64,000 bases of DNA from contig JBHLOC010000006.1 of NCBI GenBank assembly GCA_048940925.1, forward strand, positions 1 through 64,000, given 5' to 3'. A program made the position numbers and the translations under genes. This document shows, in pieces, positions 38,551-46,453 of the stretch (position 1 is the first letter of the stretch; each line of letters starts with the position of its first letter). The DNA is from Promethearchaeota archaeon (GTDB lineage: Archaea; Asgardarchaeota; Lokiarchaeia; Sigyniarchaeales; SOKP01). The notes under the pieces are model-generated. The model was not told where the DNA came from. It did not search any database and was given only the letters and a program-made list of their open reading frames with translations.

Positions 38551-39687
38551 TTAATATTTGGAAGGAGTTTTAGTTTTAATTTGTGAAGGATATTTTGTTT
38601 TAATCTTTCTCAAATCTCTCTCAATTTTTCTTTTTTCATTTAGAAATCTTTGTTTATCCTTTTCTAATTTTTCTCTTTCACGTTTAATGAGATTCTTTTC
38701 ATTATCTAATTTATCCTTTTCTTTTCCTAGTTTTCTATAGTCATTATTTAATCTATTAAATTTTTCCTCTAAATTTGGAATTTTGTGATTTAAGGAGTTA
38801 TATTTACTTTCTAATGAAGGAATCTTCTTTTCTAATTCTTTTAATCTCGATTCATGTTGTCTTCTTCTTTTTTCTGAATCTTTTACTTCTTTATCAACCT
38901 TATCTCTAGTTTTTTTAAGATCTATTTTTTTTTTTTCAATCTCACGTGCTTTTAGATCAAGATCTTGCTTCTTATACCGCGTTTTTTCTCTTTCTTCTTT
39001 TAGTTTTCTTTTTTCATCAGAAATTCGGTTTTTCTCATCAGTGATTTCCCTTTTTAGGTCATTAATCTCTCTATTTAAATTATCTCTTTCTTTAGTTAAA
39101 TCTTTAGTTTCATTTCTTAAATCCATTAACTTATTTTCCAAATCATCAATAGTTCTGTTTAGGGCTTCTTCTCTTCTTTCCATTCCCGGAAGTTTTGTTT
39201 TAATTTGTTTGATGCGATCTTCTGTTCTTATCTTTTCCTTATTGAGCAATTGTTTCTCATTCCCAATCTCCTCTCTGATTTCTTCTAATTTCTCTTGAAA
39301 TTTTACTAATTCAGCATTTTTTTGATTTAATTCATCATTCTTCTTTCTGATCTTATCTCTGAATTGTCGTTCTTTAGTAGCAAGTTGATTTTTTTGTTGT
39401 TCAATTTGATTTTCAACTATTTTTAATTCATCATGTAAGATATCCCTTTTTTCAAGAAGATTTTTAACTTCAAGTTCTTTATCTTTCCTTTTTTTTTCAA
39501 GATCTTCGATATTATCTTTGTAATCTTGAATTTGTTTAATAATTCTTTCCCATTCACTCTTTTCTCTATCTAATTTAATTCTTTCTTTTTTTATTTTTTT
39601 TAATAACTTTTTATTAGAAAGGGGTTCAATTACCTCGCCAGGTGTTTTCTCTTGTATTTGATACTTGGGAATAGGTTCATCATTCAT
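38551..39687 (-). CDS. long K/E/R-rich coiled-coil protein
   Basis: About 330 aa of heptad-like charged helix, no globular domain recognised. Confidence 0.75.
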   Translation of the reverse strand: MNDEPIPKYQIQEKTPGEVIEPLSNKKLLKKIKKERIKLDREKSEWERIIKQIQDYKDNIEDLEKKRKDKELEVKNLLEKRDILHDELKIVENQIEQQKNQLATKERQFRDKIRKKNDELNQKNAELVKFQEKLEEIREEIGNEKQLLNKEKIRTEDRIKQIKTKLPGMERREEALNRTIDDLENKLMDLRNETKDLTKERDNLNREINDLKREITDEKNRISDEKRKLKEEREKTRYKKQDLDLKAREIEKKKIDLKKTRDKVDKEVKDSEKRRRQHESRLKELEKKIPSLESKYNSLNHKIPNLEEKFNRLNNDYRKLGKEKDKLDNEKNLIKREREKLEKDKQRFLNEKRKIERDLRKIKTKYPSQIKTKTPSKY

Positions 39688-39904: not shown

Positions 39905-40294
39905 ATGGGTTTTGATGATAAGTTTGATGAGGAATTTGATGAAGAATTTGATGAAGAATTAGACGAAGATTTAGAGGAACCTTCTTCAAAGACTCCAGAA
40001 GAAATAGTTGAATCTAAAACTCCAACCACTAGAGTAGTGACTGAGGGGAAAAAGATTTCATTATACTTTATGTCAACCATTGGACCAGGTGAAAAAAAAC
40101 AAAAATTAAATGTAAATACAGGTAATAACGTGGGAGACATTAAAGAAACGGTAGCAAATTTATTTGGATTAGATCCTGCTGATTTTCATTTGTCATCAGG
40201 TGGAGTTACAATGGATGAGAGCTCAGTTTTAAAAGATTATGATATAAGTGATGGTGACGATATACTTTTAATTCCAGCAAGTACAGCGGGTTAA
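39905..40294 (+). CDS. ubiquitin-like protein 1 (acidic N-terminal extension, C-terminus ...LIPASTAG)
   Basis: beta-grasp pattern V.DIKE.V....GL.P.DF.L...G..M.....L.DY.I..GD.I.LI. Confidence 0.88.
   Translation: MGFDDKFDEEFDEEFDEELDEDLEEPSSKTPEEIVESKTPTTRVVTEGKKISLYFMSTIGPGEKKQKLNVNTGNNVGDIKETVANLFGLDPADFHLSSGGVTMDESSVLKDYDISDGDDILLIPASTAG
39911..39970 (+). repeat. 12-bp in-frame tandem repeat (tttgatga[g/a]gaa) encoding FDEE units
   Basis: tttgatgataag tttgatgaggaa tttgatgaagaa tttgatgaagaa ttagacgaagat. Confidence 0.8.
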
Positions 40295-40343
40295 ATTCTT
40301 TTTTCGGACAAAAGAAACTATAATAATACTACTTTAGCTTTAT

Positions 40344-41138
40344 TTAGTTTTTTTCTTTCCTTGAGGGAATTAAGGCAATTTCATCATCATCATCAATATT
40401 AAAGTCTTTAATCTGAGAATGTTCATTTAATAATATCCCTCCAGAAGAAAGTAGAAAAGTCTCTAGATTATAATCAAATAATCTTCCTATTCTCTCTTTG
40501 ATATGACCTATTAGTTCACTAGTATCAATTATTATTATTTTTGTTATATCACCAGACTCAACTAATGATCTGATATAAACACGGATTTGATCTTTAATTT
40601 CAATAGCGTTTACAGGAGGTGTATAAGTAATTTCATCATTAGATTTATCTCTATTTCTTAACATATTTTTGATTAACACTTTTCTCTCATTTGAATCAAA
40701 GTAAAGCATTTCCCGGATAAATAAAATCTTATCCATCTTTGATAAATCTAGTAGGTGTATTTTATTTATTTCATCTTGACTAAAAACAGAAAATATATAT
40801 TTATCAATTATAGGCATATCTTTATAGGACTCATCAGATTCAACATAATCTTCAATTAAGGGTATAGCGTCAATATATTCTTCAATTATATCAGGTGGTT
40901 TCATATTAATTGATTTTAACTCAGGTAAGTATTTCTTTTTCTTTATTTTCTCATCCCAACTGCTTTTAGAACGTATAACTGTATATACTGTACTTGTGGA
41001 TAATATCGCAACACTACCTATGGTTAGAATGAGAAATAAGGAATAATTTTCTATTCGAAATAGGAAAAAAAAGGCATAAAGCACTATACAAACAGTATAA
41101 AGAATAATAACGCTTAAAATTCTATTTTTTTTCCTCAT
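40344..41138 (-). CDS. membrane-anchored protein with C-terminal ubiquitin-like domain lacking a terminal Gly
   Basis: Two N-terminal TM helices; C-terminal IG.IKE....LF......F.LSSGG..L.E.S..KD..I.D.D.I.LIPSRKEKN aligns with the flanking Ubls. Confidence 0.8.
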   Translation of the reverse strand: MRKKNRILSVIILYTVCIVLYAFFFLFRIENYSLFLILTIGSVAILSTSTVYTVIRSKSSWDEKIKKKKYLPELKSINMKPPDIIEEYIDAIPLIEDYVESDESYKDMPIIDKYIFSVFSQDEINKIHLLDLSKMDKILFIREMLYFDSNERKVLIKNMLRNRDKSNDEITYTPPVNAIEIKDQIRVYIRSLVESGDITKIIIIDTSELIGHIKERIGRLFDYNLETFLLSSGGILLNEHSQIKDFNIDDDDEIALIPSRKEKN

Positions 41139-41223
41139 GATTTTTTAATTAGATTATGTTCTGAATTTAAAATATATAATTTAAAATTTAAATGAGATTG
41201 GAATAAAATTGAAGTTTTTATTT

Positions 41224-41895
41224 TTATACACCTTGAATTAATTGGCTAATCTTTCTATAATTCTTTATGTTAAATTTGAATAACTTTCTTTTATTATCTT
41301 TCTCAATATTCACTAATTTCAGATCTTTTAAGATATTTAAATACTTTTTAATTGTATTATGATTTTTTTTTAATCCAGATGCTATTTCTGTAATCATTAG
41401 TGCTCTGTTTTCTTGATGCATAAAACTAATTATTTTTTGAAGAATTTCTTTCTTTAAATAATAATATAATTTATCATATTTAGGATTTGAATCAAATTTA
41501 AAAAAAATTCTATGATTGTTAATTTGTTTTGATCTCACAAATTGAAATTTTTCTAAACAAGATAAGTGCCATAAAGCTTGATTACTTCCAATATGTAGAG
41601 CTTTCATTATTTCATTAATATTTGATGGGCTTTTTTTAATATAATTAAAGATCTCATTTCTTTTTGGATGTTCAATAATATTATTTTTCATTAATCTTGT
41701 GCCTGGTAAAATAACTCTTTGTTTGATTAAATTCTTTAAAATTAACTCTATTCTATTCTCATTTATATTAGGATTGTACCTAACCCTATTATTAATGAAG
41801 GATACAATTTCTCTTAAAGAAAAAAAGGTTTTTTTTGCTAAATACTCTTCTACTAATTCAAGAACAACTGATTTTGCATTATTCAGAGAACTCAT
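41224..41895 (-). CDS. multi-winged-helix DNA-binding protein
   Basis: R.EIF.YI...P..I.EI...L.I......WHL..LE and ITEIA..L.....TI..YL..L..L.LV. Confidence 0.75.
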   Translation of the reverse strand: MSSLNNAKSVVLELVEEYLAKKTFFSLREIVSFINNRVRYNPNINENRIELILKNLIKQRVILPGTRLMKNNIIEHPKRNEIFNYIKKSPSNINEIMKALHIGSNQALWHLSCLEKFQFVRSKQINNHRIFFKFDSNPKYDKLYYYLKKEILQKIISFMHQENRALMITEIASGLKKNHNTIKKYLNILKDLKLVNIEKDNKRKLFKFNIKNYRKISQLIQGV

Positions 41896-42166
41896 AAGCC
41901 TATACTTTTATTCCATTGAAAATGTTAGTCTTGTAAGTTTGTATTCTCTCTAAAACAACATTTTATTAAATATATATAATAATAGGCATTCATACAATTT
42001 ATAATATAATTTCTTATAAGCCCTAATTTGTTGTTTCTCATTTTTAGTATAACAACAAAAAACTTCAAAATCATTCCAATGGGTTTTATAATATCTTTTT
42101 AATGCGATCTTATTAAGTTTAAAAAAAATTACAAAATATAAAATGATAAAAAAGGAAGTGTTTTGA

Positions 42167-42499
42167 ATGAGTTTTGATGAATTTGATGAGGATTTAGGTG
42201 AGGAGGAACCTTTAAAATCTAAAACTCCCGCCACTAAGACCCCTTCCGCAGGAAAAAAACTTACATTATATTTCATGTCAACGATTGGTCCTGGTGAAAA
42301 AAAGGAAAAGTTAACTGTAAATGACAGTAATCAAGTAAGAGATATTAAACGAACTTTAGGTAATTTATATGGACTTGATCCTAATGACTTTCATTTATCT
42401 TCTGGTGGAGTTACAATGGATGAAAATAGTTCTTTAAGAGACTATAATGTAAATGATGGCGATGATATTCTTTTGATCCCTGCGAGTACTGCTGGGTAA
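42167..42499 (+). CDS. ubiquitin-like protein 2 (C-terminus ...LIPASTAG)
   Basis: Close paralog of Ubl1 (LYFMSTIGPGEKK, DFHLSSGGVTMDE, GDDILLIPASTAG); directly upstream of E1. Confidence 0.9.
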   Translation: MSFDEFDEDLGEEEPLKSKTPATKTPSAGKKLTLYFMSTIGPGEKKEKLTVNDSNQVRDIKRTLGNLYGLDPNDFHLSSGGVTMDENSSLRDYNVNDGDDILLIPASTAG

Positions 42500-42532
42500 A
42501 CTTATATAAGTTTCTTCATAAAATATAATATT

Positions 42533-42569
42533 AGGGCTTTAAGCCCTTCAATTTTTTTATTTTTTTTTT
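42533..42569 (+). terminator. hairpin plus T-tract after Ubl2
   Basis: AGGGCT-TTA-AGCCCT followed by a long T run. Confidence 0.55.
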
Positions 42570-42577
42570 ATTTATTA

Positions 42578-43813
42578 TTGGTGATAATATTGAAAAAGAG
42601 TTCAGATTTTTTTAGTAAAGACCTAACATCGGAAGAAAGAAATTTATATGACCGACAATTTAGACTCGAAGGGTGGTCACAGAAATTAGTAAAAAACTCT
42701 CGAGTGTTAATGGCTGGTGTAGGGGGATTAGGTTGTGAAATTGCAAAAAACCTGGCAATGTTGGGTGTAGGTCATATAGACCTAGTAGATTTAGATATCA
42801 TAGAGCATTCCAATTTAAATCGTCAAATTTTGTTTGCAGGTGCTAAATTAGGAGAACCTAAAGCTGTTGTAGCAGCAAAAAAATTAACTGAAATTAATCC
42901 TAACATAATTATCAATGGATATCATACTTCGTTAGAAAGATTGGATCCAGCATTATATCAAGCTGCTGATGTCGTTGTGGGGGGTCTAGACTCCATGAAT
43001 GCTCGGTTGAATTTAAATGCTCAATGTATAAGATTTAGAAAACCTTTAGTGGATGGAGGTGTTTCAGGTTATCATGGTCATGTTTATACTGTTTTTCCAT
43101 ACAAAAATGCATGTTATGAATGTAATCCACTCCCCGTAGGAGAAAGTGATGAGATGGCGGCATGTACAGTAGTAGGAGTGCCAAGAAAAAGAATCCATTG
43201 TGTTTTCAAAGGAGATATGGCCTTTAAGGAAGAATTTGACAGGGATCCTAATCCAAAGAACATAGATGACATAAAATATATTCAAAAAATTGCTAATGAA
43301 CTAGTAAATAAACATAACTTCCCCCCAGAGTATACTGAAGATGATATAGTCAAAATTATTGATAGGCATGATCCAGGAATTATCACCATCAATGCTGTTA
43401 TTTCAGCATTACAGTCGCATGAAGTCGTAAAAATTCTTCATTGGAATAAAGGTCATAAGGGTATCGGTAAACCTATTAAATCTTATGTTATTTTCAATGC
43501 TATGACAATGATGTTTTACCATATTGAAAAGAAAAGAAATCCAGAATGTTCTCAATGTGGAAAAAATGTTCGAAGATTCGTAGTGAAATTAAAAGAAAAC
43601 TCTCCATGTATTAATATAATCAAAACATTAGAAAAACATGGTTTTAAGTTAGATCCTGATCTCGAACCTGTTATAACATTACTAGATTTTAATGACGTCA
43701 AAATAATAGATTTAGAACAAAATCCAATTAAAAATGGTTTAAGAAATTATGAATTTATGACAGTTGCCGGGTTTATTGATGGAGAAATTTTTGTAACCTT
43801 AAAATTAAAATAA
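42578..43813 (+). CDS. E1 ubiquitin-activating enzyme (ThiF/Uba3-like)
   Basis: YDRQ, GVGGLGCEIAKNL, DLD.IE.SNLNRQ.LF, CYEC, catalytic ACT...PR...HC, RNPECSQC; start probably TTG at 42590 after GGTGA. Confidence 0.93.
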   Translation: MVIILKKSSDFFSKDLTSEERNLYDRQFRLEGWSQKLVKNSRVLMAGVGGLGCEIAKNLAMLGVGHIDLVDLDIIEHSNLNRQILFAGAKLGEPKAVVAAKKLTEINPNIIINGYHTSLERLDPALYQAADVVVGGLDSMNARLNLNAQCIRFRKPLVDGGVSGYHGHVYTVFPYKNACYECNPLPVGESDEMAACTVVGVPRKRIHCVFKGDMAFKEEFDRDPNPKNIDDIKYIQKIANELVNKHNFPPEYTEDDIVKIIDRHDPGIITINAVISALQSHEVVKILHWNKGHKGIGKPIKSYVIFNAMTMMFYHIEKKRNPECSQCGKNVRRFVVKLKENSPCINIIKTLEKHGFKLDPDLEPVITLLDFNDVKIIDLEQNPIKNGLRNYEFMTVAGFIDGEIFVTLKLK

Positions 43814-43923
43814 TAATTTAGTCAAAAAATATTTTTTAAAAAAATTTTATAGAATACTTAAAAATTTAACTATTAATTTTGTTATTAAAAATATAGAATA
43901 ATAAATAGTAAAGGATTGAGAAT

Positions 43924-44451
43924 ATGAGTATAAGAAGTAGTCGAATCTCACAAGATTTTGCAGGATTAAAAAAATTATATAAACAAGGAACAATTGTTCA
44001 GTTAAAACCATTTAATCCCAATAGAAAGAGTATTGATCATTTAGCAATAACTATTAAAGGTCCTAAAGGTACTGCTTATGCGGGTGGTCTTTTTAAATTA
44101 GAAATGAAATTTCCTGCTCAGTATCCTAGGCAACCACCTTTTGTTAGATTACATACTCCAATTTGGCATCCAAATTTTTGGGCAAAACCGAGTGAGTATA
44201 CAGGTCAGAGGAATATTTGCTTAGCACTTGTAGATCCATCTTTAGTTGGAAAAAAAGGGGGGTGGAGCCCATCAAAAACAGCTGTTACCGTAGTTCAGGC
44301 TATAACTGCGATGTTAAATACACGAGGTAAGTATGTAAATCCAACTGATGTTTTTAACAAGAAAGCTGCAATAGAAATGATGAAAAATCAGAAGTTTTTT
44401 GAGAAAAAAGTCAAAAACCTTGTTAAAAAGTATGCTAATAAGAAATGGTGA
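43924..44451 (+). CDS. E2 ubiquitin-conjugating enzyme
   Basis: I.GP.GT.Y.GG.F.L...FP..YP..PP, WHPN, catalytic NICL, W.P. Confidence 0.93.
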   Translation: MSIRSSRISQDFAGLKKLYKQGTIVQLKPFNPNRKSIDHLAITIKGPKGTAYAGGLFKLEMKFPAQYPRQPPFVRLHTPIWHPNFWAKPSEYTGQRNICLALVDPSLVGKKGGWSPSKTAVTVVQAITAMLNTRGKYVNPTDVFNKKAAIEMMKNQKFFEKKVKNLVKKYANKKW

Positions 44452-45278
44452 AATTTAAAATGGGAGAAAGAGATTCACATATAGATTCCATTAAAAAAAC
44501 AATAAAATTGAAGATAAAAGATATAATTAAGAAGGAATTGCTGGAAGAAATCTTTGAAGAATTAAAATTGGAAGAGAAAGAATTAGTTAATGAAATTAGT
44601 TCGATGATTTCTAAAAAACCTCCTGAAAAGCAAATAATAAAACATTCAACTACTACACCTATCAAATCAAAAACAATAAAAGAAGAGAAAAAATATACAG
44701 ATGAAGATAAAATAGAAAAAGAAGTGTATATTTCGGTTAAAGCAATTCTAAAAGTAGCAAGTCATGCCCTAAAGTATGCGAATTCTAAAATTCCTAGACA
44801 AAATTGGGTAGAAGTAATAGGATTACTCGCAGGTAAAGTAGAAAATAACCGTAACATCTTACATATTGAAGATTACTATCCTATGGGTCATGGAACAGCT
44901 GTTTATGCTGAAATAAAAAATTATAAAAACTATGCTAGAGCTTTTCGAGATATTAAAAAGCAAAAGTTATTTATCTGTGGTTGGGCACATAGTCATCCTT
45001 CTTACGGATGTTTTATGTCTAATGAAGATATTGGTACTCAAACAAGATACCAAAAACTTTGGAATAAAGCTGTTGCCCTTGTAATCGATCCTTATCTTAT
45101 TGATGGAACTTCAGCTGGTTTTGAAATATATCGTGCAGATTTAACCACAAAAACTTGGTATCCTTTGGTTTATGGTATTAAAGGGTCATTAGATATTCGC
45201 ATGCTACCAGAAATACTAAATTTTATGAATCCGATAATTGAAGGGAAAGCAGTTTATCTCGAATATGATGAAAATTGA
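44445..45278 (+). CDS. JAMM/MPN+ metallo-isopeptidase (Rpn11/CSN5-like)
   Basis: EVIGLL.G, GW.HSHPSYGCFMS.EDI.TQ..YQ......VALVIDP. Confidence 0.92.
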   Translation: MVKFKMGERDSHIDSIKKTIKLKIKDIIKKELLEEIFEELKLEEKELVNEISSMISKKPPEKQIIKHSTTTPIKSKTIKEEKKYTDEDKIEKEVYISVKAILKVASHALKYANSKIPRQNWVEVIGLLAGKVENNRNILHIEDYYPMGHGTAVYAEIKNYKNYARAFRDIKKQKLFICGWAHSHPSYGCFMSNEDIGTQTRYQKLWNKAVALVIDPYLIDGTSAGFEIYRADLTTKTWYPLVYGIKGSLDIRMLPEILNFMNPIIEGKAVYLEYDEN

Positions 45279-46453
45279 AACAGATAAATTTTGGTGATTT
45301 TAGAACTGTGGCTAAAATTAAATCTGTGGCAATTGTTCTGGGGATATTTCTATTAATAGCTATAATACATGGTATTATATCAGATTCATTCAATGTATTT
45401 GTAAGTTGGATACTAATCGGAATATGGCTAATTTATTCTTTTAAAGTCTTAAAAAATATAAAACAATATCGAGAATTTAATTCTCCTCATAATACTGCTT
45501 TTTTTACCATTGGACCTGTATTTATTGGGATCTTTTATTCAACTTGGGGAAATTTTACTGGCATATTAGGCGAGAATCTCCTCGAGGGAACGGGATTATA
45601 TTTAAGTTGGTGGGGTATATTATTCGGCTTTCCTTATTTAGTATACGGATCTTATTCTTTATATCGGTGTTTCAAAAAATATAATGTAATATATTTTGGT
45701 ACGAAAGCGATAAATGCTCGTACAATTGGTTATTTACTATCTTTAATAGTTATTTTTTACATTATTTTTTATTGGATAATATTTTATGCTGTTATTGATT
45801 TTTATGATTCTATCTTAATCCCTGTTAATTTTTATGCAGATCTTAATCTTATACTCATACTTATTAGTACAATTTTAATTTTTATTATTTCTGGTATTTT
45901 TGGCACACAAAGAAGATTGCCCCCATTAACGAGAGATTATATTGCAAGACGTAGAAATAGATTAAATCATTTGACTTCTCCTCAGAGAAATTCAAATTCT
46001 AGAAAAAATAGTATAATCACAAATGGAACAACCAGATCATCTAGAATTACACCCACTACTCAAAGAAGATCAACTCAAACGAGTATAAAAACAACCTCTC
46101 GAACTGTAAGTAGAAAGAAAACATCAAAGCCTAGTATAATTCCCCACAGGACCATAAGCTCAAGGGACTTTAATAAGTACAAACCAAGAGCGGGGCTTCT
46201 TTCGGTAGAGGATTTTAAATGCATTTTTTGTTTTCATTTACCAAAATTGCCAGAAGATAAGGGTAGAGGAATAGTTTTATGTCCAAAATGTAGATATCCT
46301 GCTCATGCAGATGAATTTAAAGATTGGATGCAAAATTCAAATCTATGCTCAAGATGTAATGCGATAATTCCATCAAACTATAGAAGAAATCCTAAGATAA
46401 TCAGTATAAAAAACTATATTATTATCTATAAAAGTTTATTAAAAAAAAAATAA
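45275..46453 (+). CDS. multi-pass membrane protein with C-terminal RING-like finger (putative E3 ligase)
   Basis: About 6 TM helices, S/T/R-rich linker, CIFC-x16-CPKC-x4-H..E...W.....CSRC; overlaps the JAMM stop codon. Confidence 0.75.
   Translation: MKQINFGDFRTVAKIKSVAIVLGIFLLIAIIHGIISDSFNVFVSWILIGIWLIYSFKVLKNIKQYREFNSPHNTAFFTIGPVFIGIFYSTWGNFTGILGENLLEGTGLYLSWWGILFGFPYLVYGSYSLYRCFKKYNVIYFGTKAINARTIGYLLSLIVIFYIIFYWIIFYAVIDFYDSILIPVNFYADLNLILILISTILIFIISGIFGTQRRLPPLTRDYIARRRNRLNHLTSPQRNSNSRKNSIITNGTTRSSRITPTTQRRSTQTSIKTTSRTVSRKKTSKPSIIPHRTISSRDFNKYKPRAGLLSVEDFKCIFCFHLPKLPEDKGRGIVLCPKCRYPAHADEFKDWMQNSNLCSRCNAIIPSNYRRNPKIISIKNYIIIYKSLLKKK

What the first reader, a model, noticed from the sequence alone, without database searches (positions are those of the whole stretch)
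39905..42499. Two paralogous Ubls both end in -STAG, not -GG
Both genes end in Ala-Gly-stop using different codons (GCG GGT TAA vs GCT GGG TAA), so the AG end looks selected rather than a sequencing error. They need no C-terminal maturation, so the JAMM would be purely a deconjugase. There is no Lys/Arg near the C-terminus, so standard diGly-remnant proteomics would miss these conjugates. Single-Gly ends are known for UFM1/ATG8-type modifiers.
Basis: partly seen in the sequence, partly recalled or inferred. Interest (0 to 1): 0.7.

Follow-up and report, generated by a model that had tools for sequence, protein, structure and literature searches.

The report
Asgard ubiquitin-like modifier ending Ala-Gly
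Two ubiquitin-like genes beside a full E1-E2-JAMM-RING operon in a Lokiarchaeia-type Asgard archaeon end in Ala-Gly instead of ubiquitin's Gly-Gly; this ending is invariant in every relative sampled from several Asgard lineages, so it is a selected variant of the ubiquitin tail and the usual di-glycine detection methods would miss it.

Summary
Ubl1 (39905-40294) and Ubl2 (42167-42499) are 67% identical, and both end ...IPASTAG-stop with different Ala and Gly codons.

The AG end is a family trait:
- All 127 genes in 80 species-level loci have it, with all four Ala and all four Gly codons in use.
- About 45 cluster representatives, down to roughly 40% identity, have it.
- Loci from two other Asgard families have it.
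- No GG end was found in any of these sets.

By sequence and fold the proteins are ubiquitin-type, with Ala at the Gly75 position. They are not UFM1-like. The Ubl-E1-E2-JAMM-TM-RING operon is conserved with them, and its catalytic motifs are intact.

About 10% of genes carry short extensions after AG. A third paralog in this genome has 17 extra residues. Tandem poly-Ubl genes have unit borders exactly after AG.

The same genome also encodes two GG-type Ubls. One of them is the ortholog of the "Lokiarchaeal ubiquitin" used in published work.

No paper I could search mentions the AG end. The scan had already noted this stretch in an overlapping window.

Verdict: a real, new variant of a known kind. 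Conjugation and E1 specificity are untested.

The parts
39905..40294 (+). Ubl1: 129-aa ubiquitin-family modifier with an acidic N-terminal leader and a beta-grasp domain. The tail ends Ala(40286-40288)-Gly(40289-40291)-TAA.
   Evidence: ORF and DNA. PF00240 at E = 3e-5. 67% identical to Ubl2. An ortholog sits at the same operon position in 47 of 80 loci.
40344..41138 (-). Membrane-anchored protein (two N-terminal hydrophobic helices) with a C-terminal Ubl domain of the same family. The domain lacks the AG end: after the conserved IPS it continues with basic residues.
   Evidence: ORF. PF00240 at E = 3.5e-4 on residues 203-256. Matched by the Ubl query in the own genome at E = 4.5e-11. Conserved in 48 of 80 loci. 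Homologs P0257 and P0263 have the same non-AG end. The transmembrane helices were read by eye, not computed.
41224..41895 (-). Double winged-helix (ArsR/HTH_5-type) putative regulator lying between the two Ubl genes.
   Evidence: Pfam HTH_5 at E = 3.8e-8 and HrcA_DNA-bdg at E = 8.7e-7. Conserved in 49 of 80 loci.
42167..42499 (+). Ubl2: 110-aa ubiquitin-family modifier. The tail ends Ala(42491-42493)-Gly(42494-42496)-TAA. It is the first gene of the E1-E2-JAMM-RING operon.
   Evidence: The AF2 model has a beta-grasp at residues 31-105, a disordered 1-26, and a free 5-residue tail. The best fold matches are Caldiarchaeum ubiquitin, ubiquitin, NEDD8, SUMO and ISG15.
42578..43813 (+). E1-like activating enzyme of 411 aa: a ThiF adenylation domain with GVGGLG, SNLNRQ, a candidate catalytic Cys in AACTV, and CxxC pairs.
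   Evidence: PF00899 at E = 1.3e-58. Best solved relatives are UBA1, SAE2 and UBA3 at E = 1e-38 to 1e-35; UBA5 reaches only 1e-15. Motifs are kept in 54-55 of 55 orthologs.
43924..44451 (+). Canonical UBC-type E2 of 175 aa with an HPN motif and a catalytic Cys (NICL).
   Evidence: PF00179 at E = 7.5e-26. PDB hits are UBC13, UBE2T, UBC9 and UBE2F. HPN...C is kept in 52 of 52 orthologs, which are 85-98% identical within the lineage.
44445..45278 (+). Rpn11/CSN5-like JAMM metalloprotease of 277 aa with an intact HxHx7Sx2D motif. It is the candidate enzyme for both cutting after AG in precursors and deconjugation.
   Evidence: PF01398 at E = 6.5e-14. Best PDB hits are Caldiarchaeum Rpn11 homolog, Rpn11 and CSN5. 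The motif is kept in 48 of 48 orthologs. Its role is inferred.
45275..46453 (+). Polytopic membrane protein with a C-terminal Cys/His-rich, RING-like finger: a candidate membrane-bound E3.
   Evidence: ORF. No Pfam hit. Conserved after the JAMM gene in 45 of 80 loci and in three other Asgard families. The RING assignment comes from the Cys/His spacing only and was not tested.

Best explanation
Ubl1 and Ubl2 belong to an Asgard-wide family of ubiquitin-type modifiers. Their mature, reactive C-terminus is ...IP-x-S-x-Ala-Gly, that is, ubiquitin's tail with Ala at the Gly75 position.

Proposed mechanism:
1. The adjacent Uba1/2/3-like E1 adenylates the terminal Gly and forms a thioester on its AACTV cysteine.
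2. The modifier passes to the HPN-type E2.
3. The membrane-embedded RING-like protein directs it onto lysines, probably of membrane-proximal targets.
4. The Rpn11-like JAMM cuts after Ala-Gly. This removes conjugates and also matures the minority of genes that carry C-terminal caps or tandem repeats.

Shown by sequence: the AG end and its conservation; ubiquitin-type fold and register; co-inheritance with the operon; intact catalytic motifs; existence of precursors; co-residence with GG-type Ubls.

Inferred: activation of the AG form by this E1; cleavage by this JAMM; lysine targets.

More speculative: the penultimate Ala helps keep this cascade separate from the two GG-type Ubl systems in the same cell, much as residue 72 separates ubiquitin from NEDD8.
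For: Conservation of the AG end:
- AG is invariant in 113+7 close homologs, in 127 genes of 80 species loci with all synonymous codons in use, in about 45 divergent cluster representatives, and in GTDB families f13 and f16.
- Of the 11 invariant columns in an 18-sequence alignment that reaches down to 42% identity, four lie in the last seven residues.

Ubiquitin-type identity:
- A profile search of the PDB puts ubiquitin first. The strand before the tail aligns with Ub 68-70, which places Ala at Gly75 and Gly at Gly76.
- The AF2 model is a beta-grasp with a free tail, and its best fold matches are Caldiarchaeum Ub, Ub, NEDD8 and SUMO.

Operon:
- Ubl-E1-E2-JAMM-TM-RING is kept in 45-52 of 80 loci and in three other Asgard families.
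- Catalytic motifs are intact in 48/48, 52/52 and 54-55/55 orthologs.

Processing site after AG:
- Sporadic, unconserved 1-7 residue extensions occur.
- A paralog in this genome has a 17-residue extension.
- Tandem genes P0121 (3 units) and P0122 (2 units) have each unit ending in AG, followed directly by the next acidic leader, with a final 2-residue cap.

Co-resident GG systems: contig C41 carries a Ubl ending GG+S with its own E2, E1 and JAMM. Contig C18 carries a Ubl ending GG+RFS. There is a third E1/E2 pair on contig C87.

Published benchmark: Caldiarchaeum Rpn11 cleaves a penultimate Gly-to-Ala ubiquitin much more slowly, and does not cleave Gly-to-Val at all (PMC6043591). The position therefore matters to this enzyme class.
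Against: There is no biochemical or proteomic evidence here that any member is activated, conjugated or cleaved.

The E1 tail channel and the JAMM groove were not modelled, so no compensating change in the enzymes has been shown.

Because Ala never varies within the family, no co-variation test of a specificity role is possible.

Co-residence with the C41-type GG Ubl was found in only 72 of 135 genomes of the family, against 119 of 134 for the AG family. Insulation from that system cannot therefore be the universal reason for Ala.

Pfam does not recognise the RING-like finger.
Confidence: 0.75

Rival explanations
1. Frozen accident. The modifier is conjugated as described, but the penultimate Ala has no specificity role. 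It arose once, the cognate E1 and JAMM adapted to it, and it is now kept only because reverting would lower fitness with those adapted enzymes.
For: Caldiarchaeum Rpn11 still processes a penultimate Ala, only more slowly (PMC6043591), so Ala is mechanistically tolerable in this enzyme class. Many genomes with the AG family show no C41-type GG Ubl.
Against: Ala to Gly is a single C-to-G change at the second codon position, yet none of more than 290 sampled genes has it. That argues for active selection but does not say what for. Three Ubl families and three E1/E2 pairs share this one genome, which makes cross-talk a real issue.
Confidence: 0.3
2. Not a protein modifier. The Ubls act non-covalently as adaptors or regulators of the membrane proteins encoded nearby, or as sulfur carriers, and the terminal Gly is not conjugated to lysines.
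For: No conjugates have been seen. A non-conjugatable, membrane-tethered copy of the same domain lies between the two genes, which shows the fold is also used non-covalently.
Against: The Ubls are tightly co-inherited with an E2 that has HPN and a catalytic Cys, with a JAMM, and with a RING-like protein. Sulfur-carrier systems do not need an E2. Precursor caps and tandem repeats only make sense if a free Gly carboxylate is produced. The tail is the most conserved part of the protein.
Confidence: 0.07
3. ATG8-like use. The single-Gly modifier is attached to a membrane lipid or another non-protein acceptor, directed by the membrane-embedded E3-like protein.
For: The known x-Gly modifiers include ATG8, which is lipidated (established knowledge). 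Both the E3 candidate and the tethered Ubl copy are membrane proteins.
Against: The fold and profile are ubiquitin-type, and no ATG8 or UFM1 entry appears among the matches listed (the best 60 by profile and best 50 by fold). The E1 is Uba1/2/3-like rather than ATG7-like: ATG7 scores E = 4.5e-9 against 1e-38. The E2 is a canonical UBC.
Confidence: 0.06
4. Artefact. The AG ends come from sequencing or assembly errors, or from miscalled stop codons.
For: None.
Against: The same end occurs in hundreds of independent assemblies, with TAA, TAG and TGA stops and with all synonymous Ala and Gly codons.
Confidence: 0.01

Closest known systems
Eukaryotic ubiquitin / NEDD8 / SUMO with canonical E1 (UBA1, UBA3, SAE2), UBC E2, RING E3 and Rpn11/CSN5 JAMM
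   Same: Beta-grasp fold. The tail has the same length and register. The E1, E2 and JAMM are the closest solved relatives. Precursor caps and tandem poly-modifier genes resemble polyubiquitin genes.
   Different: The penultimate residue is Ala, not Gly, and invariantly so. In yeast ubiquitin Gly75-Gly76 are among the few mutation-sensitive positions (bioRxiv 10.1101/025452). Each unit also carries a 25-45 residue acidic N-terminal leader. There is no Arg at positions 72 or 74, so trypsin leaves no di-peptide remnant.
Caldiarchaeum subterraneum ubiquitin operon (Ub, E1, E2, small RING, Rpn11; PMC5654768, PMC6043591)
   Same: A compact archaeal operon with the same five functions. The Ub is made as a precursor and cut by the Rpn11-like JAMM. 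Its Ub is the best structural match to the Ubl2 model (6fno_D).
   Different: Caldiarchaeum Ub ends Gly-Gly plus a 9-residue propeptide. Its Rpn11 handles an engineered penultimate Ala poorly. Here Ala is native, most genes need no trimming, and the E3 candidate is a polytopic membrane protein.
GG-type Asgard ubiquitins (Lokiarch_37670 and HeimAB125_14240 in PMC9192718; Helarchaeial pro-ubiquitin in bioRxiv 10.1101/2023.07.25.550441)
   Same: Same phylum and same fold family. The profile of the AG family detects them weakly, at E around 1e-6. They often carry short C-terminal caps.
   Different: They end ...GG with or without a cap. The published 'Lokiarchaeal Ub' is the ortholog of this genome's contig C18 GG-type gene, not of the window's genes. 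In this genome it has no E1 or E2 next to it, whereas the AG family sits beside the complete operon.
UFM1, ATG8, ATG12 (modifiers ending x-Gly)
   Same: A single terminal Gly preceded by a non-Gly residue (established knowledge). UFM1 also has Pro five residues before the Gly, a lead from earlier scan note e1-5591151.
   Different: None of these modifiers appears among the matches listed (best 60 by profile, best 50 by fold). Their E1s are far weaker matches (UBA5 1e-15, ATG7 4.5e-9) than UBA1/2/3. Their E2s (UFC1, ATG3, ATG10) lack the canonical HPN core (established knowledge), whereas this E2 has it.
Archaeal SAMPs / MoaD-ThiS-Urm1 sulfur-carrier-type modifiers
   Same: Beta-grasp proteins activated by ThiF-family E1s and removed by JAMM proteases.
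   Different: Those end Gly-Gly and work without an E2 or E3 (established knowledge). Here an E2 and an E3 candidate are always present.

Membership tests
Ubiquitin family (Pfam PF00240) beta-grasp modifiers | Sequence match to the ubiquitin profile above the curated threshold | tested here: met
   Ubl2 scores 28.4 bits against a 25.4 cut-off. Ubl1 scores 24.2 bits, just below it. The family profile hits single ubiquitin units in the PDB at E = 5e-9.
Ubiquitin family (Pfam PF00240) beta-grasp modifiers | Beta-grasp fold with a flexible C-terminal tail | tested here: met
   AF2 model, mean pLDDT 75.7 (84-90 over the domain). Strands and helix follow beta-grasp order over residues 31-105, with a free 5-residue tail. 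Foldseek probability is 1.00 to Caldiarchaeum Ub, Ub, NEDD8 and SUMO.
Ubiquitin-type conjugated modifiers (Ub, NEDD8, SUMO, ISG15, SAMP, Urm1) | C-terminal Gly-Gly exposed in the mature form | tested here: not met
   The end is Ala-Gly in both window genes and in every family member examined.
Ubiquitin-type conjugated modifiers | Genetic linkage to an E1 with a catalytic Cys, a UBC E2 with HPN and Cys, a RING E3, and a JAMM or other DUB | tested here: met
   The operon is at 42167-46453. It is conserved in 45-52 of 80 loci and in three other Asgard families. Motifs are intact. The RING was assigned only from Cys/His spacing.
Ubiquitin-type conjugated modifiers | Covalent attachment to substrate lysines through the terminal Gly | not testable with these tools
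   This needs biochemistry or proteomics. Indirect support comes from precursors and tandem genes whose borders fall after AG.
UFM1-type system | UFM1-like modifier with a UBA5-type E1 and a UFC1-type E2 lacking HPN | tested here: not met
   No UFM1 entry appears among the best 60 profile or best 50 fold matches. The E1 is closest to UBA1, SAE2 and UBA3 (1e-38 to 1e-35), with UBA5 at 1e-15. The E2 has HPN.
ATG8/ATG12-type system | ATG7-type E1 and ATG3/ATG10-type E2 | tested here: not met
   ATG7 scores only E = 4.5e-9 against the E1. The E2 is a canonical UBC.
Known anti-phage Ubl systems (CBASS Cap2/Cap3, Bil-type) as held in PADLOC | Match of the operon proteins to defence-system models | tested here: not met
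   Only generic ThiF-domain similarity of the E1 to E1-E2 fusion models (best E = 2.9e-16). There are no hits for the Ubl, E2, JAMM or RING-like protein. The locus is a fixed syntenic core region rather than a variable island.

The most novel reading that the evidence does not exclude
The penultimate Ala is a pathway-identity mark. Asgard cells run two or three parallel ubiquitin-like cascades: here three Ubl families and three E1/E2 pairs. Ala versus Gly at the position before the reactive Gly keeps their E1s and JAMM proteases from cross-reacting. This would be a pre-eukaryotic counterpart of the ubiquitin/NEDD8 residue-72 gate. It would also mean that the modifier served by the only complete E1-E2-JAMM-RING operon of Lokiarchaeia is not the GG 'ubiquitin' studied so far.
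Probability: 0.3. Interest if true: 0.78.

Novelty: new variant of a known kind. Interest (0 to 1): 0.62.

Why it matters
Gly-Gly is treated as nearly universal for modifiers handled by canonical E1 enzymes. Here a large, strongly conserved Asgard family breaks that rule at the penultimate position while keeping ubiquitin-type enzymes.

- **A natural test of why Gly75 is conserved.** The family offers a way to ask what E1 and JAMM enzymes must change to accept Ala.
- **Published work may have looked at a different modifier.** Work on 'Lokiarchaeal ubiquitin' used a GG-type protein (Lokiarch_37670). The modifier encoded beside the complete E1-E2-JAMM-RING operon is the AG one.
- **Detection methods need to change.** Anti-K-epsilon-GG enrichment and +114.04 Da searches cannot see these conjugates. 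Tryptic remnants are 19 residues, about 1.93-1.94 kDa. AspN leaves 11 residues (+1051.59 Da) and chymotrypsin leaves 7 residues (+597.31 Da), either of which would work.
- **Early pathway diversification.** AG and GG systems coexist in one genome, which makes early diversification of ubiquitin-like pathways directly testable.

Tried and rejected
**Explanations considered and rejected**
- UFM1-like identity, a lead from the Pro-x4-Gly spacing in scan note e1-5591151. Profile, fold, E1 and E2 are all ubiquitin-type.
- Anti-phage defence operon. PADLOC gave nothing specific and the locus is syntenic core.
- Sequencing artefact.

- The search for related loci with the 18-sequence alignment found no conserved stretch to search with. 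It was repeated with a 5-sequence alignment.
Whole-genome searches replaced it.

**Literature searches that returned nothing on point**
- Asgard or Lokiarchaeum ubiquitin combined with C-terminal glycine, Ala-Gly or single glycine.
- Ubiquitin G75A, which found only double G75A/G76A non-conjugatable controls.

**Steps deliberately not taken**
- Complex prediction was not sent. E1-Ubl and JAMM-Ubl are textbook pairs that would pass by likeness to solved complexes and could not tell AG from GG.
- No attempt was made to name compensating residues in the E1 or JAMM, because no model of the tail channel was available.
- GTDB family codes (f13, f16 and so on) could not be mapped to names.
Full report
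**1. The observation**

Ubl1 (39905-40294, +, 129 aa) and Ubl2 (42167-42499, +, 110 aa) are real ORFs. Their last codons are AGT ACA GCG GGT TAA and AGT ACT GCT GGG TAA. Both therefore end Ser-Thr-Ala-Gly-stop with different Thr, Ala and Gly codons.

The two proteins are 67% identical, E = 2e-53. Both match Pfam ubiquitin PF00240: Ubl2 is above the curated cut-off and Ubl1 is just below it.

**2. The surroundings**

On the + strand, Ubl2 is followed by four genes:
- a ThiF-family E1 (42578-43813, E = 1.3e-58);
- a UBC E2 (43924-44451, E = 7.5e-26);
- a JAB/MPN protease (44445-45278, E = 6.5e-14);
- a polytopic membrane protein with a C-terminal Cys/His finger (45275-46453, no Pfam hit).

Two genes lie on the - strand between the Ubl genes. 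One is a membrane-anchored protein whose C-terminal domain is a third copy of the same Ubl but without the AG end (40344-41138). The other is a double winged-helix regulator (41224-41895).

**3. Is the AG end selected?**

It is conserved in every sample examined:
- Of the 120 closest database proteins (85-97% identical), 113 end in AG and 7 end in AG plus 2-4 residues.
- In 80 loci from GTDB species representatives I found 127 family genes. All read IPAS[T/I/V]AG, and 113 stop right after Gly.
- In those 127 genes all four Ala codons and all four Gly codons occur, as do all three stop codons.
- Among representatives of 50%-identity clusters, about 45 family members down to roughly 40% identity keep P-x-[S/T]-x-A-G. 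None has Gly-Gly there.
- In an 18-sequence alignment reaching 42% identity, 4 of the 11 invariant columns lie in the last seven residues.
- A family profile finds the family in 199 of 400 genomes of the phylum. That is 119 of 134 in the window's own family, and most genomes in at least five further families.
- Loci sampled from two of those families read IPVSTAG or IPHSTAG.

Ala to Gly needs only one nucleotide change, so its complete absence indicates purifying selection.

**4. What kind of modifier is it?**

- A profile search of the PDB puts ubiquitin first. The last strand aligns with Ub 68-70, so the tail has ubiquitin's length, with Ala at the Gly75 position and Gly at the Gly76 position.
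- The AF2 model shows a disordered acidic leader (residues 1-26), a beta-grasp (31-105) and a free 5-residue tail.
- Its best Foldseek matches are Caldiarchaeum ubiquitin, ubiquitin variants, NEDD8, SUMO and ISG15. No UFM1 or ATG8 entry appears in the top 50.
- The E1 is closest to UBA1, SAE2 and UBA3 (E = 1e-38 to 1e-35). It is far from UBA5 (1e-15) and ATG7 (4.5e-9).
- The E2 is a canonical UBC with HPN and a catalytic Cys.
- The JAMM is closest to the Caldiarchaeum Rpn11 homolog, Rpn11 and CSN5.
- Catalytic motifs are intact in all or nearly all orthologs: JAMM HxHx7Sx2D in 48 of 48, E2 HPN...C in 52 of 52, E1 nucleotide motifs in 55 of 55, and the AACT[V/L] cysteine in 54 of 55.
- PADLOC gives nothing specific.

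The resemblance to UFM1 and ATG8 is therefore limited to the bare x-Gly end. By fold and by enzymes this is a ubiquitin-type system.

**5. Synteny**

A block of twelve genes is kept in most of the 80 loci: PHP-like protein, a 349-aa protein, a coiled-coil protein, Ubl1, TM-Ubl, HTH, Ubl2, E1, E2, JAMM, TM-RING-like, and a 291-aa protein. Within the lineage the E2 is 85-98% identical.

The core Ubl(-Ubl)-E1-E2-JAMM-TM-RING arrangement also occurs in three other Asgard families, where the E1 is 44-68% and the E2 58-74% identical. The AG tail and this enzyme set are inherited together.

**6. Maturation**

The claim that no maturation is needed holds for the two window genes but not for the family.
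- The same genome has a third paralog on contig C41 (L002 1417-1803). It continues for 17 mostly hydrophobic residues after AG.
- Across the 80 loci, unconserved 2-7 residue extensions occur in 7 of 51 Ubl2, 6 of 47 Ubl1 and 1 of 28 stand-alone copies.
- In family f16, one of two adjacent paralogs usually carries a 1-3 residue cap, often containing Tyr.
- A closed 6.0-Mb genome of the same order has a single copy capped by one residue.
- P0121 encodes three complete units and P0122 two. Each unit has its own acidic leader and ends in AG, which is followed directly by the next leader, and the gene ends with a 2-residue cap. This is the layout of eukaryotic polyubiquitin genes.

These forms need an endoprotease that cuts after Ala-Gly, and they show that the Gly carboxylate is the functional end. 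The operon's JAMM is the obvious candidate (inference). Published work on the Caldiarchaeum enzyme shows that this class cuts linear precursors. It also shows that an engineered penultimate Ala slows cleavage strongly and that Val blocks it (PMC6043591).

**7. Co-resident Gly-Gly systems**

The genome also encodes two GG-type Ubls and further enzyme pairs:
- On contig C41, an 85-aa Ubl ending GG plus Ser sits next to its own E2, E1 and a short JAMM.
- On contig C18, a 93-aa Ubl ends GG plus three residues.
- A third E1/E2 pair lies on contig C87.

The C18 protein is the ortholog of Lokiarch_37670. That is the 'Ub' used for Lokiarchaeota in the ubiquitin-ESCRT study, and it ends GG plus five residues (PMC9192718, Supplementary Data 1). 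The same paper's E2 alignment contains the ortholog of the window's E2. The Helarchaeial ubiquitin that has been reconstituted in vitro is also GG plus a four-residue cap (bioRxiv 10.1101/2023.07.25.550441).

The C41-type GG Ubl occurs in 72 of 135 genomes of the family, fewer than the AG family. The cell therefore has to keep several Ubl cascades apart. A role of the Ala in that insulation is attractive but unproven, and it cannot be the whole story where no GG partner was found.

**8. Proteomics**

The last Lys or Arg is 19 residues before the terminal Gly in both window proteins. Tryptic remnants would be 1931.90 and 1943.91 Da. Across the family the distance is 14-49 residues.

AspN would leave 11 residues (+1051.59 Da) and chymotrypsin 7 residues (+597.31 Da).

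**9. Prior knowledge**

Asgard ubiquitin operons are well known. I found no paper in the searchable library that mentions an Ala-Gly end in Asgard Ubls, but that library lacks most subscription journals. Yeast deep mutational scanning lists Gly75-Gly76 among the few sensitive ubiquitin positions.

The scan itself had already noted this same stretch in an overlapping window.

**10. Verdict**

This is a real feature conserved in every family member sampled: a ubiquitin-type modifier with a native Gly75-to-Ala tail, tied to a complete and intact E1-E2-JAMM-RING-like operon. I rate it a new variant of a known kind. Conjugation, E1 acceptance of AG, the JAMM cut and any insulation role are inferences that await the assays listed.

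**Limits**
- Lineage names rest on submitters' labels.

Noticed in passing
G000 contig C41:254098-254484 (locus L002 1417-1803): A third paralog of the AG family in the same genome reads on for 17 mostly hydrophobic residues after AG. It lies between a sulfatase-like gene and a large secreted repeat protein. Most orthologous stand-alone copies in other genomes stop at AG (27 of 28).
   Followed up: partly
window 40344-41138 (-): A membrane-tethered protein carries a C-terminal Ubl domain of the same family but lacks the AG end (basic tail instead). It is conserved in 48 of 80 loci and could act as a non-conjugatable decoy or docking site for the cascade.
   Followed up: partly
proteins P0121, P0122, P0142 (metagenomic): These are tandem poly-Ubl genes of 2-3 units. 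Each unit has its own acidic leader and KSKTP motif and ends in AG, and the gene ends with a 2-residue cap. This is a polyubiquitin-like gene layout in archaea.
   Followed up: partly
proteins P0154, P0163, P0137, P0128, P0130: Larger proteins end in an AG-type Ubl at their extreme C-terminus. By eye, the N-terminal parts look like a vWA-like domain (two separate 50%-identity clusters), a P-loop ATPase, a roadblock-like domain, and a zinc-ribbon plus coiled coil. Either whole proteins can be conjugated through their own Ubl, or some are gene-call or assembly fusions. P0123 looks chimeric.
   Followed up: no
G000 contig C41:100351-102700 (locus L023 5352-7686) and onward to about 10860: A second, GG-type Ubl system (Ubl ending GG+S, a 188-aa E2, a 294-aa E1, a 167-aa JAMM) sits next to three paralogous genes of about 300 aa that look like small GTPases with an N-terminal roadblock-like part.
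   Followed up: partly
G000 contig C87:13211-16527 (locus L022): A third E2 and a long E1 have no Ubl gene nearby. The whole-genome search reports one in-frame TAA inside the E1 match, so the E1 may be split or broken. The contig C18 GG-type Ubl, ortholog of the published Lokiarchaeal Ub, has no enzymes beside it and could be their substrate.
   Followed up: no
window 39905-40000 and 42167-42250; also 38551-38600 (-): All family members carry an acidic Phe/Asp/Glu-rich N-terminal leader followed by a K-[S/T]-K-T-P-like motif before the beta-grasp. The neighbouring coiled-coil protein ends with a similar KTP-rich tail. Function is unknown. Earlier scan notes also flagged this.
   Followed up: no
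genomes G135 and G143 (closed, 4.3-4.4 Mb, same order): The AG family was not found in two closed genomes of the same order, while a closed 6.0-Mb genome (G138) has one copy. The family has therefore been lost or is very divergent in some close lineages.
   Followed up: partly
loci L024-L103 record titles: Near-identical loci (Ubl2 83-99%, same 12-gene synteny) carry submitter labels Promethearchaeota, Hodarchaeota, Hermodarchaeota, Odinarchaeota and Thorarchaeota within one accession series. The labels are probably unreliable.
   Followed up: no
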